DNA of 36,574 nt from Chrysochromulina tobinii (lineage: Eukaryota), in NCBI GenBank assembly GCA_001275005.1, contig JWZX01002989.1:1-36574 (forward strand), given 5' to 3'. Under the pieces are notes generated by a model. It did not search any database, was not told where the DNA came from, and worked only from the letters and a program-made list of their open reading frames with translations. Shown piece after piece: positions 1 through 35,229 of this stretch; position 1 is the first letter of the stretch; every line of letters starts with the position of its first letter. The translations under genes were made by a program, and so were the position numbers.

Positions 1-86
1 TCCCCCCTGGCCGGGCTCCTGATGGCTCCGCTGTCTGTCTCTTCACGCGGTGGTTCACGGCCGCTTAACCGTTGGGGTCAAGCGGC

Positions 87-7058: not shown

Positions 7059-8025
7059 ATGTTGGACATCGACCTTTTTCGCGTCGACCGGGGCGGCAAC
7101 CCGGACATCGTGCGTGAGTCACAGCGGCGGCGCCACAAGGATGTCTCGCTGGTCGACAAGGTGATCGAGCTTGACACCGAGTGGCGCTCGACCCGCGGCG
7201 GGCTCGACAATGCCAAAAAGGTGTTGAACCAGGTCCAGAAGAAGATTGGCGAGTTCATGAAGAAGAAGGAGAGCCCGCCTCCCGAGCTGATGAAGGAGAA
7301 GCAGGATGCCGATGCCGAAATCACGAAGCTCGAGGCGAAGGAGAAGGAGCTCATCGAGGCGCGCGACAACACGCGCGTGGGCAATCTCGTGCACGAAGAC
7401 GCGCCTCTCGTGGCCGCGCCACCTGCGCAGCGCGGGCTGCCAGCAGACACGCTGCGCCGCTGCCTCATGGCCTCAGGCCTCGCCGAGCCCGTCGCCAGCG
7501 GCACCGTGCCGAGCCGCTCGTGGCGTGCGGTGGGCGACGGCTTGCTGCTCCAGCAGCAGTGGCTCTCTCACGCGCTCGCATTCGTGTCGGCGCGAGGCTT
7601 CGAGTTGCTCCACGCGCCGCTTCAGCCGTGCGCGGACCGGCTCGACAAGCTCGACAAGCTGCGCCGCGGTCGCGGCGAGCAGGGGACTGGTGTCGCTGTG
7701 CTGGCCACACGGCTCGCGACCGATCCGCTCGGCGCGTTGCATGCATGCAGGTGCGCGGATGGCCCATTGCCACTGATGGCGTGGATTGCCTCTGATTGCC
7801 CCTGATTGCCCCTGATTGCCCCTGATTGCAACTGATTGCAACTGATTGCAACTGATGGCGTGGATTGCCCCTCTACTTACCACACTGAGCGCGATGGCTC
7901 GTCTCCTTGCATGCAATGCAGCTGCCTACCGCCCACCGAGCTGCCACGTAGCTATGCCCTTCTGCGACCATATTTGGATAACTCTTCGTCGTCCTCCGCA
8001 GCCCTCGTGAACGGCGGTGGCGGCA

Positions 8026-9203: not shown

Positions 9204-10406
9204 TCACTTCCACAGCTTCTTGAGCGACGTGTTCTTCTCCGAGTCCTTCTTCATCACCTTGGCGACCGCCATCTCGAAGTCGTCCTGCGTCACGTGCACG
9301 CGCCGCTCGCGCAGCGCGAACATGCCCGCCTCCGTGCAAACGGCCTTGGTCTCGGCCCCGGAGGCCTCGTGCATCGACTTTGCAATCTTGCGAAGGTCGA
9401 TGCCGCGGGTCAGGTTCATCTTGCGACTGTGGATGGTGAGAATGTCGAGGCGCGCGTCCTCGTTCGGGTTCGGGAACTCGATCTTGCGATCGATTCGGCC
9501 CGGCCGCAGCAGCGCTTGGTCGAGGATGTCAATGCGATTCGTGGCCATGACCACTTTAATTTGGTTGGTGGCCTCGAAGCCATCCAGCTGGTTGAGGAGC
9601 TCGAGCATCGTGCGCTGGACCTCCGAGTCGCCGCCGGACTCGCCGTCCTGGCGCGCGCCGCCGATCGAGTCGATCTCGTCCATGAAGATGATCGAGGGCG
9701 CATGCTCGCGCGCCATCACGAAGAGCTCCCGTACCATGCGGGAGCCCTCGCCAATGTACTTTTGGACCAGCTCGCCGCCCGAGACACGGATGAAGGTGCA
9801 ATCCGTGTGGTGGGCGACCGCGCGCGCGAGCAGCGTCTTGCCTGTGCCTGGCGGGCCGTACATGAGCACTCCCTTGGGCTGCGCGATCCCTAGAGACTCG
9901 AAGAGCTCAGGATGCTTGATCGGCAGCTCGATCACCTCCTTGATCTCCTTGATCTGCTTGTCGCAGCCGCCAACCATGTCGTAGGTGGAGTCGGGCACCT
10001 TCTCGACCTTCATGAGCGACACGAGCGGGTCCACCTTGGATGGCAACACCAGGTGCAGCGCGTACGAGTCGTTGCGCAGTGCGACGCGGTCATTGACGTT
10101 GAGCTTGCCGATGTCGATCGACTTGTCGATGTCGACGACGTACTTGCCCTCCGGGTGAACCTTGACGAGCACCTTCTTACGCCCCATGATCGCCACGAGC
10201 TCGCCCACGTACGAGCCCGGCTCCTGCAGCAGCGACAGCTCCTCGCGCAGGTGGCGCACCATGGAGTTCAGCTCATTGCGCTGGGCCTCGAGACGACGTA
10301 GGTTTTGTGTGCGCTCGCGCACGATGACCTCGAGCTCCTCGATCTTGGCGGCGTAGTAGTTCTGGATGCCGCCCGAGGCGGACGTTGGCGCCGCCACCTT
10401 GGCCAT
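9204..10406 (-). CDS. PSMC5: 26S proteasome regulatory AAA-ATPase subunit 8 (Rpt6), 400 aa, intronless
   Basis: [45 protein letters not shown], Walker [47 protein letters not shown] and C-terminal SLKKLWK. ATG at 10406. Confidence 0.97.
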
Positions 10407-10936
10407 GGTCTTGAAGGGAAAGGGGTCGCGGCGCGGCGGGGAGAGGACGTGTGCCTCTTCACGTGTGCGTCGTGTGAAGTGCGAAAGCGAGGGCGCGTGG
10501 CCAGAGGCACAGTGGATGGGGGTGCAGAGCGAGGGGGAGTAGCTGTTCAACACAACGCGATCGGTCAGCCCACATGATGATGGAGGCAAAAAGACGGCCA
10601 GGGCTCGTTCGACACGACCTGGTGCTCCGCTGCCACCCTCGCTCATGTCTTTATTCTATACTTTTTAGCGATACCTTTAGAGCCCGCACCCGAGTTTCAG
10701 ATTGCGCGCCGCTCGGAAAAGCTGACGGCAATTTTACGCGGCGCGACGTATCAACGTACACGAAATTTTTTCAAATTACTGGACTGAGGACTGAGATCGA
10801 TCTCATGACACTCGTGAATACGATTCGACACGACACTTCACTTTGGGCTGGCGCTCACTGGTAGCCTGCAGCAGCAGTCTCGGCTGCAGCCAGGCTCGGT
10901 TCCGGCTCGCCCGCCGGACCGGCGCAGCAGCTCGCG

Positions 10937-13900
10937 ATGCGCTTAGTACTCGGGAGTGCTCGGGCGGTCGCCGTGGTGGCCCCGTCGTCGCAGCAGCGCT
11001 CGCTTCAGCGTCTGACGGCGGCCGCGTTGCACAAGACGGCGACGACCAGCATCTTGCGCCACGGCCAGTGGATAGTCGTGGGGGCCACGCGCCCGGAGCG
11101 CGAGGCGGCGGCGCGGGAGGCTGTTCAGGTCGTGAGGCCTTGGCTGCTCTCGGGCGTCGACGCCTCTGCGACCAGCAGCAGCAGCGGCGGCGGCGCCGTC
11201 GACGGCGGGGGTGGCGGCGGCCTTGGCCTCGACCGCCCCCCGTTGTTGAGCTTGCGCGAGGAGCAGAAGCAGGTGATGCTCAACGGCGCCCACGTGATGG
11301 CCAGCGCGATGGGTGCCGTGGCACTCACGGCGACGAGCGCGGCGGAGGCTGCGCGCACGGCGCTGCTCCTGGCCGCCGTCGTTGCACGCCTTGCGCTGGG
11401 CGCAGGCCCGTCCGGTTTGCATGCAACGCTCGAGACGACGCGCGGCCTCCAGTTTGGCGTGGCCAAGGCGAGCGGCAGCTCGTCCGACGAGAGTCGCCAC
11501 GCGCCCAAGCCGCCCAAGCTCGCCATCTCCGCCAAGGACAAGGAGAGTTCGAAGCTCCCAAGCCCACCCCGACCTCCATCGGAGAAGGAGGACAAGACGA
11601 CCAGGAGTGCACCGAAGCTCAACAGCGCGCGCGGCGCGAGGAAGGCGGCGGACAACAACCCTCTAGGCGGCGGCTCCAGTAGCGCGCGCGGAAAGCCTGC
11701 GGAGAAGAAGAAAGAAGGGGGCGTCTCCGAGAAAGGGACCCCCCGCTCCGCCGCCACGTCGAAGCCGTCGGTGTCGCTGCCACCACCCCAAGACGGAAAG
11801 CCGAGCTCCGCTGCGCCGCCGTCGGGGGCCGGCGGAGGCGCCTCTGCTGCGGCCCCAGCGCCGAGCGCGCGTGCCATGTCGGCGCCAAGTGCCAAATCCA
11901 AGGGACCTACGGCTTCCAAGGGCGCGCCTGAGACGAAGAAGCTCGAATTGTATCTCGAGCCGGAGGTGCCCAAGCCGGCGGGGTTGGTGTACCAACCCAT
12001 CCCGCCCTTGCCCGCAAGCATCAAGAAGCCCCCGGGCGTGCCGATCATCTCGCCGGCGGGCACGCGTCCTCGTGGGCGACAGGACGGCGCGCCATCTCGG
12101 CACGATCTCGCACCCACCGATCGGATCGGGTGGGCGCTCCTCTTCAACTGCTTCAAGGCAAAGTTTGAGGTGCGTCCGAGTGCTCCTTTCTGATGGCCCT
12201 ATCCGAGGACCCTTTCTGATGGCCTCCTCTGATGACGAGCACCGATTGGCTCCCTCATCAGGTGATTTCGGGCGACGCGACGCTGCTCTCGGACCACGAC
12301 CCTTTCGATCTCAAGGGACCCAGATCGGGCACGTCGATCGGTCGTATCAAGATCGCCCCTGCGAAGGGGACCCCTCTGGTCGAGCGCGTCGAGTTTTCGA
12401 ACGACTGGCTCCTGGCCGATCTGCATGGCGTTCAGCATGACTACTACCAAGGCGAGGGCACCATTGATCTCAAGGTGGAGTGGCGCAAGGAGACTGGCGG
12501 TGTCGAGTCGATCATGATTCGCGTGACGCCCTGGCTCGCGTACGCGTGCTCGGTTGGGTGCCGCATGCAGCTGCGCAAGCCGGGTGAGGCCGAAGGTCGC
12601 ACGTGCACGGTGCAGCGCGTGCTGCCGGACGATCGATGCGTGGTGCGGGTCGACGGCCTCTCCGGCACCGACCCTAAAAAGGCAGTCGGTTCGGCCGAAG
12701 ACGTGGTCGATGCCTCGCCCTCCACTTGTGTGCCCACATCGAATCGTCGCTACCCGGCGGGCGCGCGCCTGCTCGTGCTGCACGAGGCAGCGTGCTCTGA
12801 CGCGGTCGTCGAAGATTGGGGAGGCCCAATAGGTGTGCTTGGCACGGCGCTCGGCCCCATCCCTCGCAACTGCCCAAGCATGCATGTGCTCACCACGGCA
12901 CCACGTCCCGGCTGGACAGATCCCAAAGAGTGCCCAAGCATGCATGTGCTCACCACGGCGCCACGTCCCGGCTTGACAGATCCCAAGGAGGGCTCGCGGC
13001 ATCGACTCTGGCTCGCCCAGGGCGGCGCCGTCTTTGGCTGGGTCACTTGCAAGACGACAAGCAACATCAACAACCTGATCCCCTCGGGAATGGAACTACC
13101 CGAAACCCTCCCTTCGGAGCTCAACCCGCTCAGCCCGACAGAGGTCACAGTTCCGGCAATTCAGGCCGAGATTGAGTTCACTGTGGGCAGCCTGATGCAG
13201 GTGCGCGCGCCCACCGGCCACGCATGAAGCGCCGTCCCGAGCGTGCGCGCACTCGAAGCGCCGTTCCGAGCGCCCGCATGATGCACTGCTGCTCACCGAT
13301 CCCTCCCCCGCCCTGATTCGGCAGGTGGTCACCCCCCAACCGCTTGTGATGCGTGCGGGCTGCCATCTCTCGACCGCGCGCGTGGGCGTCCTTCCACTCA
13401 AGACGGAGGTCCGTCTGCTTGAGATCCGGATGCACGACGGCGGGCTGCGTGCCCGGGTCGAGAGGGTCGCTGCCGAAGAAGACGCCGTCGTGATCACCGC
13501 CGACCTGAATGATGTGAATCACAGTGTGCAGCGGTTCACCTCTGCCGCAGAGTACGAGTCCGCACGCTGTTCGTACTGTGACGAGGCTCGGAAGCAGCTT
13601 GAGTATGTAGAGGATGCGATCACGGGATCCGACCTGCCCATCGCCGAACAAGTGATCTACGTCAACACGAGCGAGTACGTCGATGCGGCCAAGAACATGC
13701 GTCCCGAATGGAAGGCCATCAAGGAGGGCATCGATATGGTCGAGGTGCGTCTCCAGCCCACGCAACGCCGTCCCGAGCGCTCGAAGCGCCGTATCGAGCG
13801 CCCGCAAGCACCTTGGCATCTGCTCAGCTGATCCGTCCCCTCCCCCCCCTGGAATCCCCCCCCCCCCTGGTTCACCCTGGGTTGGCAGGTGCTCCTCAAG

Positions 13901-16900
13901 GCTTCGAAGCGCCGTCCCGAGGGCATGCACCTGGCGCAGCCCGGCCTGGTGGTCGCCGGCCCAGGCACGGGCACCACCTGGATGGTTCGTCAGATCGTGC
14001 ACTCGTGCGCGACGAAACTCACCGATTCGGATGCGCTGGGTGAGGGCGGCGTGCGCCTCGTTCCCGTGATCGTCTTCGTGCAGCGCATCGTCCGCCTGCT
14101 GCGCGACACGGGCACTGACCCATGGAACGTCGTCAAGAAGCGGCGCATGATGATCTGGTACATTGAGAATGAGTTCCCTGGCAAGTCCATGAAGCTCTTC
14201 CGCGACTGCCTGTGCCAAGCTTACGACATGCGCGCGCTGGTCATCCTAGTGGACGGTGTGGATGAGGCCGCCTCGCTCAGGCTGCATGTCGAGGAGTTCA
14301 TCCACTACGAGCTCGTGCCCAGTGGGAATCGGTTACTGGTCACCTCGCGTCCGGAGGGCATTACCATGCCCTTGTACCTGACCAACTTCGCCGTGGTCTC
14401 GCTCCGTCCGCTGACGGAGAGCCAGCAGCGTCGGGTGGCGCAATCGCAGATGCGCGGATCGGCGTTCTATGAGCACCTGGTCGCCATCACCGCCGCGCGC
14501 AAGCGGCAGGACGAGCTCTGGCAGGAGCACTACCCCACCGAGGCGGTGCGCACGAAGCTCGAGTCAGTCGAATTCACACCGAGCGCGGCCGATTCTACCG
14601 GTCCCTCGCTCTTGATGCGCACAAGCCCGACGCCCAACAGCGACTCGACGCCACCACTCTCCCCCGTGACGCCTGAGCGCAAGAAGATGCAGATCATGAT
14701 GGCCAAGGGCTCCGAAATCGAGGAGCAGACTGCCATTGATACCCTCGATCAAATCATTCGGTCGGTCGCGACCGAGTCGGGCATGGCGCCCGACGACGTC
14801 GAGAATGCGCTGTCGTGGCTTGACGAATCTTCGGCTGACCGCATGCCGCGGAAGATGGAGATGGAGGAGGACATTGCGGCCTTTGCGCGGCTCGAGCTGC
14901 GCGGCGAGGAGATCTACACTGCCGTGCTGATGAAGCTCATCGACGGCGTCGAGGTCGAGATCGTGTATGGGCCCGACCTCGACGAGAAGGAGAAGCAGCG
15001 CCTTGCGGTCTTCGCGCCCGAACGGCTCGCCGCCATGCTCGACAACAAGGCGAAGCTCACGCTGCTGTACCTCGAGAATCGGTTCGCCAAGTTCGACCCA
15101 ACGCACACGCGCGACATTCTGACGTACCTCAAGATGCGTTACAAGGGGCAGACGCTCTCGTGCGAGTTGCAGCTCATCCACACCGAGATCTTGCAGGTGA
15201 CGGAGCGAATGGACACGTACTCGCACCTGCGCTACTTCCGACTGCAGGCCGCTCTCAAGCTCGAGCCAGGTGCCCTCATGCTGCCCCCTGCCGAGCTCGA
15301 CAAGAAGTTCGAAAAGTCGTTGCTCTTTGCCGAGGAGGCGAGTGGCGTGCCCGTGCTGCTCTCCATGTTCGTCCTCATCCTCGTCTCGGGCGCGGATGAT
15401 CTGGCGGCGCTCCCCACCTCGCGCCTCGAGCTGTACCAGACGGCGACGGACTCGGCGCTGCGCCGGCGCATCAAGCGCACGCTGCAGGTGGCGCCTTTGA
15501 TCGCCTCTGATCGCCTTTGATGGCCTCTGAGTGTACTGGGAGGCCATCTGCTTGCATTTCGGCGCACGGTGCAGGGGGGTGCCCTTGATCCTCCTTGATT
15601 GCCATCGATCGCCACTGATGAGCTTCGTCCGTGTGCAGGCGCCCAAGGAGGACCCCGCGGCGCCCAAAATCAAGAAAGATCAGAGCGACCCCGCCAAGCC
15701 CCTGGCGGCGACGGATCCCAAAGTGGCCGAGGCGGCCAAGGCGGCGGAGGAGAAGGCGGCGGCCGAGAAGGCGGCGGCTGAGAAGGCGAAGGCGGAGGCG
15801 CTTCTGGCGCTCGCGGCCCAGGCGGTGGCGACCAAAGCCGACGAGGGGGCCAAAAAAGGCGTCAAGGAGACGCCGAAGGAGAAGGAGAGGAGGGAGAAGG
15901 AGAAGGAGAAGGAGCTGCTGAAAGAGAAGGCGGCCAAGGAGAAAGAGCGAAAGGCGGCTGCCGGCCAGGCAACGCTCAACCTTGCCGGTGCGATTCCGCA
16001 GAAGCTCGAGCCGTTGAAGGGAGAGGAGTCGGTGGTGGCCGTGCATGCCGTCACGATGAAGATCCTCGAGAAGGTGCGCAACGGCGACAACCTTCGCGAC
16101 TCAATCCAGCGCTACGTGCCCGAAGGCAACAAGCTGCGCCCTTGGGTCAAGGCGCTCGTCGAGACGGCCCTCGAGCCGGCCAACTTGTCGGCGCAGCCGT
16201 GCGGTCTGCGGATGCTCCGACGCATTGCCATCGCCAATCAGGAGGCGGGCAGGCGTGAGTTCTCCTCGAAGGACGTGGCGCTCGTGCTCTGCTCACATGG
16301 CGATGAGCTCATCCTGTGGTTGCGGCTCGAGCAGGTGCGTCCACTGATTGCCTCTGATTGCCTCTGATTGCCTCTGATTGCCACCCTAATCTTTGGATGC
16401 GGCACGAGCAGGTGCGCGGATGGCCTCTTGATGGCCTCTTGATGGCCTCTGATGGTCTCTGATGGCCATCTGATTGCCTATAAAGGCGTCTCATCACGCC
16501 TCCTCCTTTGAGCACGGCTCATGAGCAGAACCAAGAGTACGGCGTCGCGCTCATCAAGATGCTCGAGCCACCGACGGACACGCTCCCGGCGGTGTACCAG
16601 TTCAAGCATCTCTCCTTCCAGGAGGGCTTGTTCGCGGAGCATCTGCTCTCCGTCGTCGAGGACCCTTCCTGGACTGGCTGGGATAACGATGTGGTCGCCG
16701 CCGCCTTTTTGAACAACGCGTACATGAACAACACGTGCCGCATCGCGGCCGGCCAGCTGGGCACCTTGCTGGCCAAGCGGCGCAAGGCTTGGAAGTTTTC
16801 GGTCGTTGAAGGCTCAAGTTTGGGCATTGTGGGCCGGCGTGCGCTCTGGTACTTGCTTGAGGGCAACGAGACGCTGCAGATGCTCGACCTGAGCGGCAAC

Positions 16901-19900
16901 GGTGTCGGATTGGAGGACGGCATGGGCATCGTCAACCTGCTCCGCAGCTGCGCGGCGCTCAAATCGCTCGACTTGTCCGACAACAGCCTCGATACCCTCA
17001 AGCGTTCACAGCTCTCGGCTGTGTGCCGCTCGCTCGGTGGGAACGTGAAGCTGACGGAGCTCAACTTGTCGAACAATCGTCTGGGGTCGGACGGCTGCAA
17101 ATCGATCTGCACCGCGCTGCAGGGGTGCATCTCCCTACGCTACCTCGGCCTGAGTCACAACCAACCGATGCGTGAGATGGCGCTCCCGAATCTTCTCCAG
17201 ACTCACAAGTCGCTCACGGACATTTCGATCGTCGAGGCGGACTCGAAGTGGCTCGACAGCCGCGCCAAGGACAACATTGGGCAAGCACTGCTCCAGAACG
17301 AGGGTGGCAAGCTTTCCTTTTGCGAGTGCGACTCGTTTGCGCTCACTCCGGAGACCAAGTCGCTCATCTGGACCTCTTCTCTCCCGGCGGATGCAGTGCT
17401 CCTCGCGGGGGTGCTCAAGACGAACACGACGCTCACCTCGTTCGCGTCGGCGGCGGGCAACAAGCTCAACGACGCGAGCCGCGCCGCTATCGGGCGGGCG
17501 CTGCTCCAGAACAAGAACGGTCGCGTCGGCTTCTGCGACGAGCTCGGACTGCGCGAGGGGGTCAAGTCGACAGAGATCGACCTCTCCACGTCCTTTCACT
17601 CGGTCGAGGCGTTCATGTTGCTCGCGGGCGTGCTGCGCGCCAACCGCACCCTCACGTCGCTCACGATGAACTCGCTCAAGACCGAGCACATCGAGCCGCT
17701 CGCCGAAGGCCTCCGCTCCAACTCGACGCTCGAGATCTTGAGATTGCAATCCTCATCCAACAAGGCCGGCCCGGGCGGCAAGCTCACGGTCGTGACGCTC
17801 CCAATCCAGCTGCTCAACGGTGCGCTCCAGCAGCCGATCATCGACCTCTCCTCCGCGGGCACCCTTTCGCGCGTCTCGTGCGCCGTCGTGGGCGTGCTCC
17901 TCGCCGAGAACAAGACCGTTCAGACCCTCAAGCTTTCCAAGACAGGCCTCGGCTCGGTCGTGCAGGCCGAGGGCGGCAGCATCATCTTCGATCCGCTCTC
18001 GGGCGGGGAGTCGACCCTCTACCAGCTCGACCTGTCGGAGATGGAGCTCGGCGACAACGGCGGGCGCAAGATTTTTGAGGCGCTCCTCACCGGCCGCTGC
18101 CGACGGATCACATCGCTCATCCTCTCGTCCAACGGCCTCTCGGACGAGACCGCGCGCGTGATGCACCAGCTGCTCCAGAATAACGAGGTGTGCACCCTCA
18201 CCTCGCTCGACCTGTCGCACAACATCATCAACGCGGGCATGCTCTCGCGCGCCATCAAGCGCAACACGACGCTCAAGTTCCTCAACGTCAAGGGTTGCGG
18301 GCTGAGCGAAGAGTCGCTCAGCGACATTGGCGACTACCTGCTGGGCGACGACTGCAAGTGCGTGGATGGCCCCTGATGGCCCTTGACGGCCCCTGATGGC
18401 CACTGATGCCCTCTGGTGCCCACTGATGCCCGCTGATGCCCACTGATGCCCACTGATGCCCACTGATGCCCACTGATGATGGCTGATGGCTGATGATGGC
18501 TGATGATGGCCGCTGACGAGCTCTGATTGCGCCCATCATCAGGTGCCGACTGGGCCAGATCCGATGTGATCTGTTCGAGATCGAAGACGGAGCGACGCAT
18601 CTCGAGCTCATCTCACGCAAGCTCTCGGTCGCCACCTCGCGCGTCCTCTTCGGAGTGCTCAAGCACAACACGTCACTCAAATCCGTCTCCATCCTCGGCT
18701 GCGGCATCGACGCCGAGGGCGCCAAGGCGCTCGAGATGGCGCTCTCGACGAACACCTCGATCACGCTCATCGACTTGTCAGGTAACAAGATCCACACGAG
18801 TTCGGAAGGCGTCCAGGCCCTCACGCGCGCCGTCGAGCGCAACAAGCGGCTCGAGAAGATGATCCTCGACGGGCCCGGCTCCGATCTCGTCTTCAAGGAG
18901 CTCCGCGTCGCCGCGCACCTGAACATGAACGGGAAGCGGCTGCGGCTGCTATCGGGGCGCCGTGATGGGCGCCCTCGTCGCCCCGAACCTCAACCTCACC
19001 GATTTGAACCTCGAGAACAACGAATGCCTCGGACCGGTGGGCGCGAACGCCATCGCGGTCGCCCTCACGCAGCGCCAGTCGACGCTCAAGTACCTCAACC
19101 TCGCCGAATGTGGTCTCGCCGGATCCAGCTCTTGGGAGATCACGACGGCGCGCTCGGAGCGCTCAGCTACTGGCGAGGACGACGAGCCGGTCGGCGGCGC
19201 TCGGAAGGAGGACTTCCTTGAGCCCGAGGCGCCCCTTAAGCGTGAGAAGCGCGTCAAGAACGTCACCAACGCCACCAACGCCACCAAAGGGTCGAAGAGC
19301 GATGCCAAGGTGGACGAGAAGCCCCTCGAGTTCGATAAGTTCAAATCGGATCTGGATATCAAGACGCGCGCGCAGCTGACCGAGCTCATGGTCTCCATTG
19401 GCCAAATCTCGACCCTCGAGTCGTTGACGCTCGACAAGAACGCTCTCGCGGACGCCGAGTCGGCGCTCCTCACCCCGATCGGAAAGCTCTACAATCTGCG
19501 CTCGCTCTCGCTCTGTGGGAATCGTCTGACCGAGGTGCCCTCTTCCATCGGCTCCTTGCGCTCTCTGCAGGAGCTGTTGTTGCGCTCGAACCAGCTCAAC
19601 GAGCTTCCGAACGCCTCGATCGGGCTCCTCGGGTCCCTCGAGAATCTCGATCTCAAAGGCAACCAGCTCACGTACCTGCCCGACTCGATCGGGCAGCTGC
19701 GCACTCTCAAGTCGCTCGATGTGTCCGAGAACAAGCTGACCGAGCTACCGGCTTCCTTCGGCCTGCTTCGCGACACGCTCAAGCTGTCCGTCTCGCGCAA
19801 CCCGCTCCAACGCCCGCCCCTCTCGGTCGCGCGCCAGGGCATCGATGCGATCCGTCGCTACTTCAATGAGCTCAAGAAGAGCGGATCGACGACGAGCCGC

Positions 19901-22624
19901 GCGGCGCGCCTCGTGCTGCTTGGCGCGGGGCTCGCCGGCAAGACGTCGCTACAGCGCGGGCTGCGGCATGGGGCGGCGCGCCCAGCCAAGCTCGACGAAC
20001 GGACGATCCAGCTCGACATCCACACGCTACCCCTTGGCTCGGGCGCCGAGCAAGTCGTTCTCTCGATGTGGGATTTGGCCGGCCAGCCCGAGTACGCTGC
20101 CGGGCTGCAGCCGTACATTGTGCCGGGCTCCCTCTACCTGCTTGCCGTGCCCGCGCAGCTGTGCGCGGACGAGCACTACCCCGATGTGCTCGGCCGCTGG
20201 CTCGACTACCTTCAGGCAGGCGCGCCCGAGGCCGTGGTGCAGGCGGTGCTCACGCACTGCGACGAGCTGTTGCCCGAAGGGACTGCAGGCAAGGGGAACA
20301 TGTCAACGTCCGCGCTCGAGGAGGCATGCGAGCTCCAGGTGCGCTGGGTGAAGGAGAGCATGCGGCGGCACCAGGGCAACCTGCCCGCGGGCTCGAAGAG
20401 GCTGCTCATCCAGGACGCCGTGCCGTGCGTGTGCGCCGTCGCGGGCGGCGACGCTTCCCTCGCCAACCTGCGCTCACGCCTCGAGGCGATCGTGCTGGCG
20501 AAGCCGCCGCTGCTCCCTTGCATCGGAATGGCGATCCCGCGAACGTGGATCCTTGCGATGGGCTTCCTTCGCGCGCTTCGGGACGGTCGAGACCCTGTGG
20601 CCGTCGTCACGCAGAACTCGCAGCCGGAGGCATCGGCCGAGCGAGCCGTGCCGTACGTGCCGCTCGCGGATGCGATCCAGCTCTGGGTCGATGTGGTCGC
20701 CCCCAAGCTGCAGGTCGCGGCCGATGGCCAGGCGATCGAGGATACGCTCCAGGTCCTCGTCAATCAAGGCGAGTTCTTCGCGTCGAGCGGCATCATCTTC
20801 TTGCAGCCCGACTACGTGACGCGGCTACTCAAGCCGCTCGTCGACCATCGCGTCAACAAGGTGAACAAGGTGGCGGAGACGAGCCTTGGCGGGACGACGA
20901 TCCTTGGCTTCACTATCAAGGATCCCGTGCGCGTCGCGCTTCTCTCGTCGGCGGTGTCCACGTTTGTGGGCAAGGGCGACCTGCGCGAGGAGCTGTTGCC
21001 GTTGCTCTGGGAGCCTGTCGGCCTGCATGAGGACGACTACGGCTCAGTCCTCATGATGCTGTGCGCGAGCGGCGTCCTCTTCCTCGCCGAGCACACGCAG
21101 CAGGGGCGCAAGTGGATCATGCCGATGCGCTTGCCCGAGACACAGCCAGCAGAGCAGCTCGCCAAGTGGCATCGTCTGCGCACGTCCCCCGGCATCGAGC
21201 AGCTCGGCGTCGTGTACCCGCTCGGCGCCCTCGCCCCCCCGGGCATCGCCGAGCGGCTCATGTCGCACCTGTACGGGTTCGGCAAGTACCACGCGTTCTG
21301 GAAGGGCGGCACCCTCATCGAGACGCGTGTGCACAATGCGCTGCTGCTCGTCGAGCTGCGCACAAGGGACGGTGGCCAGGACTCGAGAGAAAGGCACCAG
21401 GATTTACACGAGCTCGTCCTCGAGCTGCGCGGGCCCAAAGCCCAGCGGAGCGACCTGTTCGCGCTGATCCTCAACGTGCGCAAGCGGACAGAGGTGCTGC
21501 TGCACGACTTTCCTGGGCTGCTCATCGCGGGCAAGCTCTCGTGCCCGGGGTGCGTCTTTGACGCGAAGCACTCGTTCGACCCGTCGCGCTGGGCCCTCGA
21601 TGAGGTCACTAGCCGTCCGCAGACCTGCCGCAAGTGCTCCGAGAACGTCTCCCTCGAAGGCGTCAAGATCAGCCAGATCGACGAGATGGGGGGAGGTGCG
21701 GAGGAGATTTCGCTCGCGCTGCCCTCGCGCGAGGGGATGAGCGTTATGAATGAGAACAAGTACGTGGGGGAGCTGCTCCGGCTCGGAACCCCAATTGAGG
21801 CGAGACAAGGGATCCACCGGTCTCTCAACGTGTCCGGCAAGCTGCTCTGGGAACGCTTCTCTGAGGGCGAGGAAGCCATCCTCAATGAATTCATGCAGAA
21901 CATTTCGCAGGAGCGTGATGCGATGGGCTGGTCGGACGGCGACTGGCTCCACTACGTCCTCTCGCAGACCGCCGACGAGCGCACGCTGCCTGTGGGCTAC
22001 TCGTCGACCAAACTCGATAAGGGGCACAAGGGCATGGCGCTCGACGACTTTTGCAAGCACCCGATCGCGGTGGGCGCGCGCCTCGACCGCGCCCACGTGC
22101 TCGCGCTGCGACTCTACTCCACCTCGGTCTTCCGATCGATCAACCGGCCGCTTCGCGAGGCGCGTAAGCATCCGTACCCCGCGCTCGTCTCACGCCTCGT
22201 CGACGGCATCGTCAGGCTGCGCGCGTACCAGTCTCAGAGTGATGTTCAGCGCACCTACGAGTTCTGGCGCGGGATGCGGGTCGAGGCGAGTGATGAGTTC
22301 TTCGCGCGCGGCACGACCGAGCTCGCCTTCTCGCCCACAATGCGCACTGAGCGCAAGGTGGCCGAGAGCATGGTCACGAAAGATGGCGCGAACGCGTCCG
22401 TGCTCATTCGGCTCCAGCTGACCATGAAGGAGGCGGGTGCCGATATTTCGTGGCTGAGCGTCTTCCCCGGAGAAGGAGAGTTCCTCTTCCCTCCGGGCAC
22501 GTACGTGGAGCCAAAGCCCTCGCGTGGAGCGACGATCCCTGGCGCGGTCCGCGTCATCGACGGCTTGGTGCACGTCAAGGAGCACCGAATCGAGCAGCTC
22601 GCACCGCGCGAGGCCTCCCCATGA
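10937..22624 (+). CDS. Giant multidomain NLR/ROCO protein (~3550 codons): disordered N-terminus, NACHT-type NTPase with RelA/SpoT-like insertion, RI-like LRRs, typical LRRs, Roc GTPase, COR, CxxC pair and ART-like domain. Exons 10937-12169, 12262-12832, 12980-13200, 13325-13744, 13889-15487, 15639-16334, 16529-18357, 18543-22624, with one apparent +1 frameshift at 18954-18957
   Basis: All seven proposed GT-AG introns join successive ORFs in frame. NACHT motifs: GPGTGTT (Walker A variant), LVILVDGVDE, LLVTSRPEG, VPVLLSM, RLELY, YQFKHLSFQE. LRRs: LxxLDLSxN, LxLxxNQLxxLPxSIGxL. Roc: GAGLAGKTSL, WDLAGQ, VLTHCD. ART-like: LALRLYST, FWRG, GADISWLSVFPGEGEFLFPPGTY. The start codon is uncertain. Confidence 0.75.
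12170..12261 (+). other. Intron 1 of the giant gene (GT-AG)
   Basis: gag|GTGCGT ... catCAG|gtg. Phase 0; contains an in-frame stop and ctgatggcc repeats. Confidence 0.8.
12833..12979 (+). other. Intron 2 of the giant gene (GT-AG, stop-free, contains a 60-bp tandem duplication)
   Basis: atag|GTGTGC ... ttgaCAG|at. Phase 1, giving WGGPIDPKEG. The duplication 12871-12930 / 12931-12990 provides two candidate acceptors (12919 and 12979). Confidence 0.6.
13201..13324 (+). other. Intron 3 of the giant gene (GT-AG)
   Basis: cag|GTGCGC ... cggCAG|gtg. Phase 0. Confidence 0.8.
13745..13888 (+). other. Intron 4 of the giant gene (GT-AG)
   Basis: gag|GTGCGT ... tggCAG|gtg. Phase 0; poly-C tracts near the 3' end. 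Confidence 0.8.
15488..15638 (+). other. Intron 5 of the giant gene (GT-AG)
   Basis: cag|GTGGCG ... gtgtgCAG|gcg. Phase 0; tgatcgcct/tgatggcct repeats. Confidence 0.8.
16335..16528 (+). other. Intron 6 of the giant gene (GT-AG) with an internal AG|GT at 16411/16412
   Basis: cag|GTGCGT ... gagCAG|aac. Phase 0; ctgattgcct and tgatggcct arrays. Confidence 0.75.
18358..18542 (+). other. Intron 7 of the giant gene (GT-AG) with ctgatgccca decamer array
   Basis: aa|GTGCGT ... catCAG|g. Phase 2, yielding DDCKCRLGQIRCDLF, which parallels the earlier FCECDSF and GFCDEL LRR-unit motifs. Confidence 0.85.
19900..21520 (+). other. Roc GTPase and COR domains of the giant gene
   Basis: G1 GAGLAGKTS, G2 T (RTI), G3 WDLAGQ and G4-like THCD, followed by COR-type motifs (IPRTW, IFLQPDYVTRLLKPLVDH, PPGIAERLM, FWKGG). 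Confidence 0.85.
21940..22575 (+). other. C-terminal mono-ADP-ribosyltransferase-like (R-S-E clade) domain of the giant gene
   Basis: ALRLYST..FRSINRPLR, FWRGM, TELAFS, GADISWLSVFPGEGEFLFPP. The ExE motif is retained; the STS/STT motif is atypical. Confidence 0.7.
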
Positions 22625-23500
22625 ACGGTAAGTGAACGGGGCCATCCTGAAGATCATCCTGACGGGAAGGGGGAGCATGCAGGCCCTCTTCTGTGAAAGA
22701 AGACGCCGAGGGCCTGAGCAGCCGCCACGCGGTGACTGATTCGTACTGTCGAAAGCGTCGTAGGGATCCTACGTACGTACGTCGTGTCATCAACATGTTA
22801 TCATCATGTACGCATGCATGCGCCAACATTGGGGCATATCGGTTGGGGTTGTCGCGCATCGCATGGTGAGGCGCCTCCCCTGCGGAAGAGGAGGGCCGTG
22901 AGAATCGGGCCAGCGCTAGCCGCCGTAAGCCGCCGGGCCTATCGCCGGATAGGGGATCATGTCCCGGAAAACGCGAAATTGGCATGGAAACCGGTGTCGT
23001 ATCGTTTTAAGGGTCCGGATTTTTGTTGGCTCGCGCGATCGGCGGCCGCCCTCTCAGGTCCGTCATAGCGGCATATCATGGGCGTGGACCGCGTGGTGCT
23101 CCGTGCTCGGGAACGTGGTGGCTGGTGCCCCCCCCCCCCCCCAGGTGGGTGATGGCGCTGGGCGGCGCGAGCCAACAATGCTCAATGGTGGCGGTGACAC
23201 GTCGATCACCATCAGCGGCACGAGGCTCTCCGATCTGAACAGCATCGCCGGGCGCCAAAACGCGCGACGAGCTTCGCCGGCACTGCGACGCGATCCTCGA
23301 AAACTACGCGGCATTGGCGCTGGCGCATCCGCATCATAGATTCCTGTGCAGACTAGCAGCTCGAGACTAAGCAGCGCAGCAGCAACCTTCGCCCTGTGCA
23401 GCTCAGCAAAGCGTTGGCAGCTCCCTTGGGAGATTCATGTCCCTCGTGCAGGCCGTCGCCGTCCCCTCCCTGGCCGCCGCTGCCAACGCTGCCGGCGCAT

Positions 23501-24859
23501 CTAAGGCGAGTCGACCGCCGCGAAGAGCGATTTGGCCTTAGCAGTGTAATGCGCGGCGTCCAGATGCTGCGCGTGCAGCATCCGGCACATGTGCTGCAGC
23601 AAATTGCGCTGGATCACCACGTATTGGGCGAGGCGCGTGACCTGCTCCGTGCTCATGATGGGACCCCGGGTTGCATTTGCCTGAGCTGCGAGTATCTCAG
23701 CCAGTAAGGCCAGGTCTATCCCCTGCCTTTCTAGTTGCTCATCCACTTCCGTGTGCGTCGGTAGCTGCGTGAGAGTCGCCTGATACTGCTCGCTCAGGAT
23801 TGAGCATGCAAAGTTCGGCGACTTCACCACACATGGTGGGGGCGGCTTAGCCGCAGCGCGCAGGTGGAGCGCGGCGACCGGCGTAAGGAAGGCGAGCTCG
23901 GAAGTTGCGGGAAAGGTGATGGTTGTCTTTGGGGCAGGGGAGGAGGCAGATTTTTCCATGTTGGTGCCGGAAGGAGGAGATGTGGGCGAGGCTAGGGACG
24001 CCGTTGCAGCCACGAACGTCCGAATAGGGCTCGCTTGCACACGCTCCAGCTGCCGCCACTCCGACGCAGCCTTGGCCGATGCCTTCAGATCGTGCGTCAC
24101 CTCCGGAAGTTGGCTCATCGGTAGCGGCGGCCCGTCCTTGGCCTCGGTTAAGATCTGTACGCTTGTGGCCTCGGTTGAGGTCTGTACGCGAACAAGCGAC
24201 GAGTCTCCGACAGATCGCCAGCTCGTGCCAAGCAGCTCAATATAAGAGTGCGCAGGCAGATTGTCGACGTCACTGTCGATGTCAGCGGCGTCAGCTTCCC
24301 GCCAGCCGGCGACTTGTGCGAGGTCATTCTTGTCAATGCCGTCTTGTGGGGAGAAAATGGAGGGATGAAGACCATTGGTGGCGGCCGGAGCCTCAAGAGA
24401 TGGCGACGACAGCGACGTCTCGCCGTTCGTCTCGAGAACATCCAGAAAGTCTTCCAGCATCACGAGCTGCTTTTCGGCCGACTGCCCCACTGCCTCACGG
24501 CAACAATGGGCGGCCCGGTACTTTTGCAGGTGCGAATTTATTCTTTTGCGCGTGTGGACGTCGCTCTCCGAATCAACGCCCATGAGCTGCCGGATGGCCT
24601 CTGGCTTTGCTGATTTCAAGCCAAGCCGCTGCACCGCATCTTCGAAGCGCCGGTGCAAGTCAGCGGTCCAAACGAAGCGGCTCGAGCGGCGGCGCTTTTC
24701 GTCCTGCTCGACCTCGTCACTGCTGCTGCCGTTGCCGTTGCCACTTCCATGAGTCCCAAGTTTGGAATGCAGCCCTCGCTTTGGGCGAGAGCTGGTGCGG
24801 CGACGAGCAGGATAACTTAAGCTGTCGCAATGGGCGGCGGCGGAGGACGAGGAGGACAT
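23501..24859 (-). CDS. GARP/SHAQKYF-class Myb-like transcription factor (~452 aa)
   Basis: RFVWTADLHRRFEDAVQRLGLKSAKPEAIRQLM...RKRINSHLQKYR at ~24515-24680. First ATG at 24859. Confidence 0.85.
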   Translation of the reverse strand: MSSSSSAAAHCDSLSYPARRRTSSRPKRGLHSKLGTHGSGNGNGSSSDEVEQDEKRRRSSRFVWTADLHRRFEDAVQRLGLKSAKPEAIRQLMGVDSESDVHTRKRINSHLQKYRAAHCCREAVGQSAEKQLVMLEDFLDVLETNGETSLSSPSLEAPAATNGLHPSIFSPQDGIDKNDLAQVAGWREADAADIDSDVDNLPAHSYIELLGTSWRSVGDSSLVRVQTSTEATSVQILTEAKDGPPLPMSQLPEVTHDLKASAKAASEWRQLERVQASPIRTFVAATASLASPTSPPSGTNMEKSASSPAPKTTITFPATSELAFLTPVAALHLRAAAKPPPPCVVKSPNFACSILSEQYQATLTQLPTHTEVDEQLERQGIDLALLAEILAAQANATRGPIMSTEQVTRLAQYVVIQRNLLQHMCRMLHAQHLDAAHYTAKAKSLFAAVDSP

Positions 24860-25203
24860 CCTCTCCACGTGTAGGAGCTGCGTGCGTCTCCAGATTGATC
24901 TGATAGCGTGCACCCAAGCTACTCCTGCGGCCGCAGCATCGCACTTCGCAACCCCAAAGGGGAACTCGGTCCCGACGGCGACGCTTGGCAGGCATAAGGA
25001 AAGTTATTTATGGATCGTGTTCCGGCAAATTCAGGTGTGGCGGGAACGCGGTAATCATAAAATATTATAATCGGGACTCAGCGTCCTCGATTACCCCGCG
25101 TCCTGATCTTGTGAATCGGAAACGTGCGCCTAGTCCCTAGTTCACTCAGTCTCAAGTCTGACACTCGCGCTGTTCCCGGCCACTGCGCACTGGCGCTGAC
25201 ATT

Positions 25204-26286
25204 CTACAATATTGCGGCGCTACGCTCGAGCATCGCCAACGCCTCGCGCCGCTCCCGGGCCCGCAGCCGAGCGGTGCGCACCGGCGCGTCCGAGAGCCGG
25301 AGCGCCGCCTCGAGCAGCGCCCGGCCCGCCGCCACGTGCGAGGCTGCCGCCGAGGCCGCGTCGACTGTAGCCTCCAGGGAGGTTTGGCTGGTAGGCACAT
25401 ATCTTGCTGCGATGGCGAGGTGTGTGCGGGCCGCGAGGAGCATGGCGGGAGGCGCGCGCACGGGCGCCGCTACCGCGTGTGCGCGGAGGGGCCCCAGCGC
25501 GTGCGCACGCGCCAGACGCTCGTGCAGCGCCAACGCGTTCGTCGACGCCCTGAGAGCACACGCCTCCCACTGTGCCAAAGCGGCTGGCTCCTTGGCACTC
25601 TGGGACTCTTTAGGAGGCTCCTCGATGAGGCTGGCGGCGGCGTCGGCGAGGAGGAGGCAGATACGGTAGCGAAGCCGGAGCACGGTCACCGAGCCCGAGG
25701 GAAGCGCGTCCAGAGCGACCAACGCTTGCTCCGCCGTCTCCACGCCGCGTATCCTCTCGCCATCGGCCACCAGCTGATTCGCGCGCTCGTGCAGACGTGC
25801 CGCGCGCCCGAGGCTCGCGCTAACGTGCAGGCCGCTCGCTGCGACGAGGCGGCGTGCATCGTTGACGCTCTGAATGCTGCAACGGAGCTTGGTGCCGCTC
25901 GCCGAGCTCACGGCGACATTGGGTCCAGCACCACACATTCCAAAGCACTCGCCGCCATAGACTGCACCCAGCGCTGGCGGGACGAGGTCCTCGATTGCGG
26001 AGAGCACGCGCTCAGCGCCGTTGCGCATGCACGAGAGCGAAGTGCAAACCTTGAACTCGGTGCGCGAGTGAACGCAAAGCTGCTGTCGCGGGCCGCAAAG
26101 CAGTGAGACGAGCCTCCGACGCTGCACAGACTGGATCGTGATGGCGGCGCAATTGCGCGCAGCGACGGATGCGGCTGCCGAGGCAATGCTCAGCTGCCTG
26201 TGCGTGGCCTTCCGATGGACCTTCAGCAGAAGCAAAGCTGCGATGAGCGCCGCGGCGGCGACGGCGACGGTCGCGACACCATGCAT
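25204..26286 (-). CDS. Protein with N-terminal hydrophobic anchor, IQ-like motif, thioredoxin-like [2Fe-2S] ferredoxin domain and helical (TPR-like) C-terminus
   Basis: VCTSLSCMRNGA...ECFGMCGAGPNV (Cx4C...Cx3C) matches the thioredoxin-like ferredoxin ligand pattern. AAITIQSVQRRR is IQ-like. ATG at 26286 (alternative 26352). Confidence 0.65.
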   Translation of the reverse strand: MHGVATVAVAAAALIAALLLLKVHRKATHRQLSIASAAASVAARNCAAITIQSVQRRRLVSLLCGPRQQLCVHSRTEFKVCTSLSCMRNGAERVLSAIEDLVPPALGAVYGGECFGMCGAGPNVAVSSASGTKLRCSIQSVNDARRLVAASGLHVSASLGRAARLHERANQLVADGERIRGVETAEQALVALDALPSGSVTVLRLRYRICLLLADAAASLIEEPPKESQSAKEPAALAQWEACALRASTNALALHERLARAHALGPLRAHAVAAPVRAPPAMLLAARTHLAIAARYVPTSQTSLEATVDAASAAASHVAAGRALLEAALRLSDAPVRTARLRARERREALAMLERSAAIL

Positions 26287-26441
26287 GCACAGAAAATGTT
26301 TTTTCTCAGCGCGAATGTGTGAATGCAAATCGCAGACGCCTTCGCTCAGCATCTGGTGGTTCAATGATTTGATCCACTACCGGTAAAAAGACACCGGGGG
26401 GAGGTAATCTTAATTAATAAGGTGGCGATCGCGGGCGCCAC

Positions 26442-27536
26442 ATGCCAATCCTGTTTTGTCGCGCCGACGACGAAGATGCGGACGACGACGACACGCTGCC
26501 GCGGCCGGCGCTGCCAGTGCCGGATGGCCCGGCAGTGGTCGATGAGAGCATTCCTCCCGCTGATGGCCTCGATTATCTCAAGCGCGTCCGCGCGCAGGCC
26601 GGCACGCTGCCAGACGTGATGAGGATCCCGAGCGAGCAGCAACGGCAGTGGAAGCAAGACTCTGGAGCCTCGCGCAACCCGGGCTCGAATTCTTCGCACC
26701 GTCAGTCGCTCATTGCTGCGCTGGAAGCCGCCGCCTCGGCGCCGCTGGCACCACCGCCGCCTTCGCTGCGACCGCGGGCAGCATTCCAGGAGCAGCTCCT
26801 TGCCGATGTTGCGGAGGTGCGCACGCGCTTGCTCCAGCTGCTTCCCGGATACAAGGGCGCCAAACCACCAGCGGCAGCATCGTGTCCTGATGCATCCGAC
26901 ACGGCGGCATGGGTCGCTTGGAGCCTCGGTGCCGCCAGCGCTGGTGCAGGCAGCAAGGGCAGCGGCGGCGGTGGCGATGGGCATGGTGGCCGTGGTGGCG
27001 GAAGTGGGCGAGCTTGGGCGCGCCCAGCGGCATCGGCGTGGCCGGAGGCGCAACTGCCGACACCGCAGCGCCTCGCTGCCCTCAACACGTCGCGAGCCAT
27101 CGGATTGCTTCGTGGTCTCCTTGTCGCACTCGACGCTGAGCGAGCGACGCTGCCGCCGCCGCTGAACAACCCGTCGCCGCCGACCGCCTCGTCGGCGGAG
27201 CCGGCGGTGCCAGCGCCGTGGGCGGCTGCCCTGGTGGAGGCGGAGGTTGCCCCCAGCGAGCCTCTCGCGCGCTGGGCTTTTGCAGCCTTGATGCGCCTCG
27301 AGAACGCCCACCACGATGCGGACACGGGCGCAGCGGTGCGCGCGCTGTACACGAGTTGCAGCGCCGTGCGCGCCGAGCTGGGCGCGGCTCTGCTGGCGAA
27401 TGGAGGAGCAGCGGCTTCTGCGTGGTCGGCGCTGCCGGCGCCGGCGGCGCGGCGTGTGGCGCGCCTCAACGTTCTCATCACGCTCAGCGGCGGCCTCTTC
27501 GGCCAAGCGCCTCGCGACGAGTGGATGGGCGACTGA
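26442..27536 (+). CDS. GEMIN2: Gemin2 / SMN-interacting protein 1 homologue (364 aa)
   Basis: RPALPV, PPADGLDYLKRVRAQAGTLPDV, WAFAALMRLE...ADTGAAVRAL...C and C-terminal LNVLITLSGGLFGQ are Gemin2/SIP1 hallmarks. Confidence 0.85.
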   Translation: MPILFCRADDEDADDDDTLPRPALPVPDGPAVVDESIPPADGLDYLKRVRAQAGTLPDVMRIPSEQQRQWKQDSGASRNPGSNSSHRQSLIAALEAAASAPLAPPPPSLRPRAAFQEQLLADVAEVRTRLLQLLPGYKGAKPPAAASCPDASDTAAWVAWSLGAASAGAGSKGSGGGGDGHGGRGGGSGRAWARPAASAWPEAQLPTPQRLAALNTSRAIGLLRGLLVALDAERATLPPPLNNPSPPTASSAEPAVPAPWAAALVEAEVAPSEPLARWAFAALMRLENAHHDADTGAAVRALYTSCSAVRAELGAALLANGGAAASAWSALPAPAARRVARLNVLITLSGGLFGQAPRDEWMGD

Positions 27537-30509: not shown

Positions 30510-30620
30510 TCATCAGCAGCAATCACAAATCCGCACGCGATTTTAGTCCAATGGAGCTCAGAAGGATTGGCTGAATTGTATTCTGTGGTTCATTCAAAAC
30601 TTCCATATTGCAAGCAATCA

Positions 30621-35072: not shown

Positions 35073-35229
35073 CACGCCAGCGGCGCCGACGATAGAGCGT
35101 TGGCCCGCGTCTCGCGGCGCACGGTCGACTGCGCTCGGTTCGTCACGAGACTTTGCAACGAGTCTTGTAGCTGACGAGCAAACATCTCGTCTTCCCACAG
35201 CTCGCGGAAGCAGAAGTGCGTCCACAGCC

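What the first reader, a model, noticed from the sequence alone, without database searches (positions are those of the whole stretch)
10937..22624. Giant NACHT-LRR + Roc-COR + ADP-ribosyltransferase fusion: a candidate single-chain algal immune or cell-death receptor
Seen: eight exons splice in frame (seven GT-AG introns) into a ~3550-codon frame carrying, in order, NACHT motifs, many RI-like LRRs, typical LRRs, Roc, COR, a CxxC...CxxC pair and an ART-like domain. Known: NACHT-LRR proteins (NLRs) are innate-immune sensors, ROCO proteins (LRRK2-like) are GTP-dependent dimer switches usually coupled to kinases or death domains, and R-S-E ARTs are toxin or effector enzymes. Inference: two normally separate signalling switches are wired to an enzymatic effector in one polypeptide, possibly for antiviral or programmed-cell-death signalling. 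I do not know of a described protein with this architecture.
Basis: partly seen in the sequence, partly recalled or inferred. Interest (0 to 1): 0.9.

Follow-up and report, generated by a model that had tools for sequence, protein, structure and literature searches.

The report
Giant NLR–Roco fusion in an alga
One spliced, transcribed algal gene encodes a 3,549-residue protein that joins an immune-receptor-type NACHT-LRR half to an LRRK2-type GTPase half and an ADP-ribosyltransferase-like tail; it likely works as a GTP-switched signalling receptor whose NACHT part has probably lost ATPase activity, and that part hides a domain predicted to have the fold of bacterial alarmone synthetases.

Summary
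Real, and one gene. RNA contigs show seven GT-AG introns (4 of 4 runs). The apparent frame break at 18954 is an extra base in the assembly, absent in 8 of 8 runs. The frame is 3,549 aa: NACHT-type NTPase, RI-like LRRs, typical LRRs, Roc-COR, CxxC pair, R-S-E-type ART domain. Eleven 90%-identity clusters share the whole order, including named Chrysochromulina paralogs. (1) This copy is partly disarmed: Walker A has Thr for Lys (Lys in 143 of 150 relatives) and the middle ART triad position is non-canonical, while Roc G1-G4 is intact. (2) A ~190-aa insert inside the NACHT helical domain has a predicted fold matching RelA/SpoT synthetase domains (Z 8.2-8.7; no sequence-level support). Its motifs are eroded here but kept in most paralogs. 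The LRRs are conserved, not hypervariable, and neighbours are housekeeping genes, so immunity is plausible but unshown. Best reading: a Roco GTPase switch with a pseudo-NACHT-LRR sensor arm and an ART-like output. I found no description of this architecture in print. New variant of a known kind.

The parts
10937..22624 (+). Whole gene, 8 exons, 3,549 aa (start codon inferred)
10937..12169 (+). Exon 1: low-complexity Ala/Ser/Pro/Lys-rich N-terminus; conserved region begins near 12056
   Evidence: no Pfam hit
12262..12832 (+). Exon 2: conserved uncharacterised region (about 45% identity to paralogs)
   Evidence: no Pfam hit; Atlas blank on the ortholog
12833..12979 (+). Intron 2: in frame, stop-free, 147 nt, invisible as a frame break
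   Evidence: joint in 4 of 4 RNA runs
12980..13200 (+). Exon 3
13325..13744 (+). Exon 4: conserved uncharacterised region before the NTPase
13934..14563 (+). NACHT-type nucleotide-binding domain and first part of helical domain 1 (exon 5, 13889-15487); Walker A with Thr for Lys, Walker B intact
14714..15268 (+). Insert with predicted RelA/SpoT synthetase-like fold, motifs partly eroded in this copy
15287..15478 (+). Second part of NACHT helical domain 1, resuming after the insert
   Evidence: NLRP9, NLRP3 and NOD2 align across the insert
15639..16858 (+). Charged linker, then winged-helix/HD2 region (exon 6, 15639-16334, and start of exon 7, 16529-18357)
   Evidence: motif label recalled
16859..19129 (+). 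Ribonuclease-inhibitor-like LRR array (exons 7-8)
   Evidence: Pfam LRR_6
18954..18954 (+). Extra base in the window assembly (false frame break)
   Evidence: left out in 8 of 8 runs; P0105 reads through
19379..19870 (+). Typical LRRs preceding Roc
   Evidence: Pfam LRR_14 E 1e-17, LRR_8
19871..20500 (+). Roc GTPase domain, G1-G4 intact
20528..21655 (+). COR-A and COR-B, ending in the CxxC...CxxC pair (21533-21655)
21788..22570 (+). R-S-E-type ADP-ribosyltransferase-like domain; Arg and Glu-x-Glu present, middle triad position non-canonical

Best explanation
A single spliced gene encodes a 3,549-aa Roco-family protein in which a NACHT-LRR unit is fused in front of an LRR-Roc-COR unit with an ART-like tail; the Roc-COR GTPase is likely the working switch, the NACHT-LRR half likely serves as a non-hydrolysing sensor and autoinhibitory arm, and the tail would deliver an NAD-dependent output that is probably weakened in this copy. 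SHOWN: one open spliced frame, transcription in culture, domain order, intact Roc G1-G4, Thr for Lys in Walker A, 2 of 3 ART triad positions, a paralog family with the same order. PREDICTED: COR fold; RelA/SpoT-like fold of the insert. INFERRED: a ligand binds the LRRs and releases the clamp, Roc-COR goes through its GTP-linked dimer/monomer cycle (as in C. tepidum Roco and LRRK2), and this exposes the ART domain, which sits where Roco proteins carry their kinase, death or TIR effector. Paralogs keep different subsets of the four catalytic sites, so they may act together. I put the served process at about 45% defence or cell-death signalling, 35% cytoskeletal or trafficking signalling, 20% other.
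For: Single chain. 15 of 100 NTPase-bearing proteins of 900 aa or more have NTPase+Roc+COR+ART, collapsing to 11 clusters; many of the other 85 are exon-bounded fragments. Roc motifs are intact and near-invariant across 23 rows; Roc is 84% identical to the ortholog. Roc-COR fold: Foldseek E 1.2e-18 to LRRK1; VIA Z 21.2 to LRRK2 (465 aligned, rmsd 4.8) and Z 14.6 to the isolated COR domain. Walker A Lys in 143 of 150 covering rows and Thr in 7, all in this ortholog group, which is one side of a branch with SH-aLRT 100. The NTPase is still 81-89% conserved in orthologs, which fits a retained non-catalytic role. Effector-after-COR syntax: PMC8195603 section 15.
Against: No activity, ligand or target was tested. 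Some P-loop proteins bind nucleotide without the canonical Lys (recalled), so 'non-hydrolysing' is inferred. The ART middle position is proline here against serine in 22 of 24 rows, so this copy may have no enzymatic output; the ART part of the model has low confidence. No single RNA contig spans the gene. The runs may come from one campaign and include the source culture.
Confidence: 0.5

Rival explanations
1. A canonical immune or cell-death receptor with both switches active: pathogen sensing triggers NACHT oligomerisation, Roc-COR relays it, and the ART kills or arrests the cell.
For: NLR-like fold (NLRP9 Z 8.7, NLRP3 8.5, NOD2 8.5). At least four further Chrysochromulina tobinii loci of the family. 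Bacterial LRR-Roc-COR-effector proteins are proposed counter-invader systems (PMC8195603). Brown algal ROCOs are candidate immune receptors (PMC11378527). NACHT and LRR genes are highly transcribed in virus-recovered cells of another haptophyte (PMC12489294).
Against: Walker A lysine absent and ART triad incomplete in this copy. LRRs are 68-85% identical to the ortholog, and 15 near-identical fragments show 0-3 LRR differences each, unlike rapidly evolving immune LRRs. Housekeeping neighbours. Present as spliced RNA in 6 of 6 culture RNA runs laid, with no infection on record.
Confidence: 0.25
2. A largely non-enzymatic structural or cytoskeletal scaffold (flagellum, haptonema, trafficking), in which only the Roc GTPase matters and the NACHT, synthetase-like and ART domains are relics or binding surfaces.
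For: Three of four enzyme-like modules are eroded in this copy. Of 25 wider relatives scanned, 3 carry formin FH2 plus parvulin and 3 carry EF-hands. A profile of relatives' LRRs matches axonemal LRR proteins and structural maternal NLRPs as well as ribonuclease inhibitor. Strong conservation, no diversification.
Against: The family keeps the full R-S-E triad in 15 of 24 rows, and the insert's Asp and Glu in 41 of 55 rows, which suggests enzymatic selection in the family. RI-like LRR matches are generic.
Confidence: 0.22
3. Two adjacent genes (NACHT-LRR and LRR-Roc-COR-ART), or a frameshifted pseudogene.
For: The window sequence itself has a frame break near 18954. In the two DNA runs the contig lacking the base makes up only about half the summed depth at that place.
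Against: RNA contigs cross the site without the extra base in 6 of 6 runs; P0105 reads through; 11 clusters of homologs are single chains.
Confidence: 0.03

Closest known systems
Roco proteins (LRRK1/LRRK2, C. tepidum Roco, brown algal LRR-ROC-COR)
   Same: LRR-Roc-COR core with intact G1-G4 and the same predicted fold; effector directly after COR
   Different: An entire NACHT-LRR unit lies N-terminal; the effector is ART-like, not kinase, death or TIR. Neither NACHT nor ADP-ribosyl occurs in the main text of the brown-algal ROCO survey; NACHT does not occur in the Roco review.
NLRs of the NACHT clade (NLRP3, NLRP9, NOD2)
   Same: NBD-HD1-WHD followed by RI-like LRRs; structural match across the module; 10 of 25 wider relatives pass the Pfam NACHT cut-off
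   Different: Walker A Thr; ~190-aa insert within HD1; no recognised N-terminal death, TIR or CC domain; LRRs continue into Roc-COR-ART
Bacterial AP-GTPase (Roc)-COR counter-invader proteins (Kaur et al. 2021, PMC8195603)
   Same: LRR + Roc + COR + variable C-terminal effector; one listed protein, VFJ72898.1, has Roc+COR+NACHT in one chain
   Different: That protein has the reverse order and no ART. None of the 38 ART mentions in that source-data file is on a Roc-COR protein. Their LRRs evolve fast; these do not.
R-S-E (ARTC-clade) mono-ADP-ribosyltransferases
   Same: Pfam ART and ADPrib_exo_Tox above cut-off; Arg and Glu-x-Glu in place
   Different: Intracellular tail of a giant GTPase; middle triad position non-canonical in this copy; activity untested
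RelA/SpoT synthetase domain, small alarmone synthetases and CapRel
   Same: Predicted fold of the insert matches SpoT, Rel, CapRel and a small alarmone synthetase (Z 8.7, 8.6, 8.4, 8.2); relatives keep a Lys-Asp-Arg-Asn-His-Arg-Glu set in a similar order (motif roles recalled)
   Different: No sequence-level match; embedded within a NACHT helical domain; first half of the motifs eroded in this copy. The RSH survey lists plastid-type long RSHs for haptophytes (PMC3153485, passages).

Membership tests
Roco proteins | Roc domain with G1-G4 motifs | tested here: met
   Pfam Roc E 4.9e-9; motifs intact
Roco proteins | COR domain directly after Roc | tested here: met
   No Pfam COR hit on this protein, but COR-B passes cut-off in homolog P0023; fold match to LRRK1/2 and to isolated COR, Z 14.6 over model 223-598
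Roco proteins | GTP binding/hydrolysis and COR-mediated dimer cycle | not testable with these tools
   needs biochemistry
NACHT-clade STAND NTPases / NLRs | NACHT profile above curated cut-off | tested here: inconclusive
   20.8 bits against 26.7 for this protein; 10 of 25 relatives pass
NACHT-clade STAND NTPases / NLRs | Walker A lysine | tested here: not met
   Thr here; Lys in 143 of 150 rows. Filed as NACHT-derived, likely pseudo-NTPase, not as a canonical NLR.
NACHT-clade STAND NTPases / NLRs | Walker B acidic residues | tested here: met
NACHT-clade STAND NTPases / NLRs | NBD-HD1-WHD followed by LRRs | tested here: met
   VIA matches to NLRP9, NLRP3, NOD2 spanning the insert; WHD motif located (label recalled); LRR_6
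NACHT-clade STAND NTPases / NLRs | N-terminal signalling domain (death fold, TIR, CC, HeLo) | tested here: inconclusive
   No Pfam hit; Atlas blank; region not folded
NACHT-clade STAND NTPases / NLRs | Ligand-triggered oligomerisation | not testable with these tools
   needs experiment
R-S-E ADP-ribosyltransferases | Profile match above cut-off | tested here: met
   ART 26.4 bits (cut-off 22.3), ADPrib_exo_Tox 26.5 (23.4)
R-S-E ADP-ribosyltransferases | Complete Arg-Ser-Glu triad | tested here: not met
   Arg and Glu present, middle position non-canonical in this copy; complete in 15 of 24 family rows including the orthologs
R-S-E ADP-ribosyltransferases | ART fold | tested here: inconclusive
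   low-confidence part of a 917-aa model; domain not folded alone
R-S-E ADP-ribosyltransferases | NAD-dependent transferase activity | not testable with these tools
   needs assay
RelA/SpoT synthetase (SYNTH) domains | SYNTH nucleotidyltransferase fold | tested here: met
   Four RSH entries among the top 17 rows, all on model residues 270-482; Z 8.2-8.7, 112-144 aligned, rmsd 3.4-5.0. Z is only just above the tool's caution level.
RelA/SpoT synthetase (SYNTH) domains | Sequence-profile match to RSH proteins | tested here: not met
   No RelA_SpoT hit in Pfam, NCBIfam or PADLOC; own profile does not detect E. coli RelA or SpoT
RelA/SpoT synthetase (SYNTH) domains | Full catalytic motif set | tested here: not met
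   This copy lacks 2 of 7 family-conserved positions and matches only the second half of the family profile; most paralogs keep all seven
RelA/SpoT synthetase (SYNTH) domains | Pyrophosphoryl transfer activity | not testable with these tools
   needs assay

The most novel reading that the evidence does not exclude
A haptophyte family of single-chain defence receptors carries two switches (NACHT ATPase, Roc GTPase) and two nucleotide-modifying outputs (an alarmone-synthetase-type domain inserted into the NACHT lid, and an ADP-ribosyltransferase). Paralogs such as P0023, P0026 and P0027 keep all four motif sets; the window's gene is a partly disarmed partner or decoy. NACHT activation would directly gate alarmone synthesis or tRNA pyrophosphorylation in a eukaryotic cytosol, a CapRel-like strategy inside an NLR.
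Probability: 0.18. Interest if true: 0.9.

Novelty: new variant of a known kind. Interest (0 to 1): 0.66.

Why it matters
NLRs and Roco GTPases are studied as separate signalling switches. Here they are one conserved polypeptide in a unicellular alga, with an ART-like domain in the Roco effector slot. That gives concrete candidates for intracellular sensing in haptophytes, whose antiviral mechanisms are largely open (PMC12489294), and a natural kinase-free system for asking what Roc-COR controls. The predicted RelA/SpoT-like insert inside the NACHT module occurs in most long relatives examined (73 of 100 have an insert over 200 aa). If active, it would be a new output chemistry for eukaryotic NLR-type proteins. 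The gene is also a case where one assembly error and one in-frame intron break the annotation.

Tried and rejected
A seventh intron bridging the frames near 18950: many GT-AG pairs fit arithmetically, none has the donor or repeat signature of the real introns, and RNA contigs cross the site unspliced. Pfam COR on this protein: no hit. Sequence-level support for the RelA/SpoT-like insert: none in Pfam, NCBIfam or PADLOC; the 60 rows shown of 150 in a PDB profile search were LRR/NLR proteins; tblastn of two relatives against plasmids and phages found nothing; my profile of 34 inserts scored E. coli SpoT at -2.8 bits with 21 of 100 shuffles as high, and did not hit RelA (90). No ART structure appeared among the listed rows of either fold search of the C-terminal model, where Roc-COR fills the list; this is not evidence against the fold. 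Foldseek on the NACHT model gave mostly weak AAA+ matches. The Atlas gave no usable hit for the N-terminal region of the ortholog. The scan's earlier findings held nothing. No whole genome is held, so paralogs in the window's own assembly were not counted. The careful NBD tree did not finish; the quick tree of 70 rows was used. No complex prediction was run.

Full report
1. Gene structure. The + strand holds a chain of long frames from 10865 to 22624. From the window alone I could place six introns with GTG donors, CAG acceptors and shared repeat words. They left a coding length of 3n+1 and two overlapping frames near 18929-19221. Nineteen public runs hold half or more of the sampled words; I laid 8 of them (6 RNA, 2 DNA). 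In one search all seven joints appear in 4 of 4 RNA runs with GT..AG ends, including an in-frame, stop-free 147-nt intron (12833-12979). Base 18954 is left out in 8 of 8 runs. In five RNA runs that form accounts for all depth at the site; in X15 for 28.2 of 33.2; in the two DNA runs for about half. There the long contig has the same depth as its neighbours, so the surplus is probably a short look-alike from elsewhere, but I could not see it and a second allele is not strictly excluded. Independently, P0105 (98.9% identical, environmental) reads through the site. The spliced frame is 3,549 aa without internal stop. No RNA contig spans the gene. Spliced contigs from three runs tile it with overlaps (11256-16328 plus 30 bases, 15750-20847, 20562-23011), and RNA contigs break near 15760 and 20830 where DNA contigs break too. 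The runs may be one campaign. The start codon is inferred: RNA contigs reach about 10870 by length. The organism is likely a Chrysochromulina-type haptophyte, inferred from the named paralogs.

2. Domains. Pfam gives NACHT below cut-off (20.8 bits), LRR_6, LRR_8/14, Roc (E 4.9e-9) and ART; on the isolated tail, ART and ADPrib_exo_Tox both pass their cut-offs. A model of Roc-to-end (pLDDT 66.7) matches LRRK1, LRRK2 and bacterial Roc-COR (Foldseek E 1.2e-18; VIA Z 21.2, isolated COR Z 14.6). The CxxC pair falls within the range aligned to the end of LRRK2's COR, so it is probably the tail of COR-B and not a separate module (inference). A model of exon 5 (pLDDT 74.6) aligns to NLRP9, NLRP3 and NOD2 on both sides of a ~190-residue insert. 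The insert itself matches four RelA/SpoT-family synthetase structures (SpoT Z 8.7, Rel 8.6, CapRel 8.4, small alarmone synthetase 8.2; 112-144 residues). These Z values are modest, and every sequence-level test of that assignment was negative. What favours it: four entries fall on the same segment, and relatives conserve Lys 36, Asp 44, Arg 38, Asn 53, His 52, Arg 55 and Glu 42 of 55 rows (19 redundant rows dropped from 74) in an order resembling synthetase motifs (motif roles recalled). The N-terminal 800 residues include two conserved regions of unknown type.

3. State of the catalytic sites in this copy. Roc G1-G4 is intact. Walker B is intact, but Walker A has Thr where 143 of 150 covering rows have Lys; all 7 Thr rows are this gene's near-copies or orthologs (redundant rows included), and they form one side of a well-supported branch in a quick tree. 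The insert lacks 2 of the 7 conserved positions and matches only the second half of the family profile. The ART has Arg and Glu-x-Glu, but proline where 22 of 24 rows have serine; the complete triad is present in 15 of 24 rows, including the orthologs (4 redundant and 2 incomplete rows dropped; 6 proteins without the ART helix were not aligned).

4. Family. Colinear full-length homologs of 2,900-4,100 aa were found. 15 of 100 long NTPase-bearing proteins have NTPase+Roc+COR+ART, in 11 clusters at 90% identity. Named members are all Chrysochromulina (KOO31139.1, KOO34003.1, KOO22124.1 partial, KOO24656.1 fragment, a C. parva 3,593-aa model), annotated only as LRR, small-GTP-binding, hypothetical or NACHT proteins; the rest are unnamed, so the taxonomic range is unknown. 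Paralogs keep different subsets of sites: P0023, P0026 and P0027 keep all four sets, while P0029 and P0030 have lost the ART Glu. Identity to the ortholog P0020 is 81% (NBD), 68% (RI-LRR), 85% (typical LRR), 84% (Roc), 65% (ART) and 45% (insert); 15 near-identical fragments differ at 0-3 LRR positions each. The wider NTPase family (781 representatives) is fused to formin, EF-hand and other domains.

5. Mechanism. I commit, at 0.5, to a Roco switch with a pseudo-NACHT-LRR sensor arm and an ART-like output. The chain, the order and the motif states are shown; the COR and insert folds are predicted; ligand sensing, the GTP-linked dimer cycle and effector exposure are inferred from Roco and NLR biology. 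A fully armed immune receptor (0.25) fits the paralogs better than this gene. A structural or cytoskeletal scaffold (0.22) fits the erosion, the conservation and the relatives' fusions. Two genes or a pseudogene (0.03) is refuted by the reads.

6. Literature. Full-text searches: Roco+NACHT+haptophyte, 0 papers; Roc+COR+NACHT+ADP-ribosyltransferase+algae, 0; RelA SpoT+NACHT+alarmone+eukaryotes+nucleotidyltransferase, 0. Searches were seen as listings and showed no such fusion in titles or abstract starts. Read as passages: PMC11378527, PMC6337361, PMC12489294, PMC3153485, PMC7159879, PMC9334734. PMC8195603: passages, section 15, and term searches of its supplements (one file not searched, one cut). 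That paper describes bacterial LRR-Roc-COR proteins with at least 24 effector types and lists one Roc+COR+NACHT protein, but no COR+ART. A review of ART evolution that I recall discussing eukaryotic ART fusions is not held and may bear on novelty; subscription journals were not searched.

7. Verdict. Observation confirmed, with the frame break explained as an assembly error. Interpretation partly supported. The protein is a member of the Roco family; it works like, but is not filed as, a canonical NLR, an active R-S-E ART or an RSH synthetase, because a defining feature of each failed in this copy. New variant of a known kind; interest 0.66.

Noticed in passing
window 9207-10655 (-): 26S proteasome AAA ATPase subunit, head-to-head with the giant gene across about 500 bp; a shared promoter region is possible.
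   Followed up: partly
window introns 12170-18542: The introns carry short repeated words also found at many other loci of the genome (very high summed depth and many loose ends in DNA runs); possibly a spreading intron or repeat family.
   Followed up: no
window 16940 and 22245: All 8 runs differ from the window at these two coding positions (both change the residue): further assembly errors or strain differences.
   Followed up: partly
window 16335-16528: Intron 6 contains a second donor-like copy near 16413, and three RNA runs have a low-depth contig inside the intron (16404): possible alternative splicing or retention.
   Followed up: no
P0223, P0240, P0247; P0190, P0293, P0225; P0221; P0248: The same NTPase family occurs fused to formin FH2 plus parvulin, EF-hands, an F5/8 lectin domain or a phosphotransferase; several of these also carry the insert. 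A mobile, undescribed eukaryotic STAND module; 781 representatives at E<=0.001.
   Followed up: partly
P0029, P0030: These paralogs keep Walker A and all seven insert positions but have altered Roc switch motifs and have lost the ART catalytic Glu: the mirror image of the window's gene.
   Followed up: partly
window 6975-7802 (+), 23504-25003 (-), 26421-27533 (+), 30237-33211 (+), 33535-34689 (-): Seryl-tRNA synthetase N-terminal domain, Myb-like protein, SIP1/Gemin2, FAD-dependent protein and WD40 protein: ordinary housekeeping neighbours.
   Followed up: no
window 69-1877 (+), 3978-6581 (-), 25207-26376 (-), 34419-35804 (-): Long open frames with no Pfam hit at E<=0.001; not examined further.
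   Followed up: no
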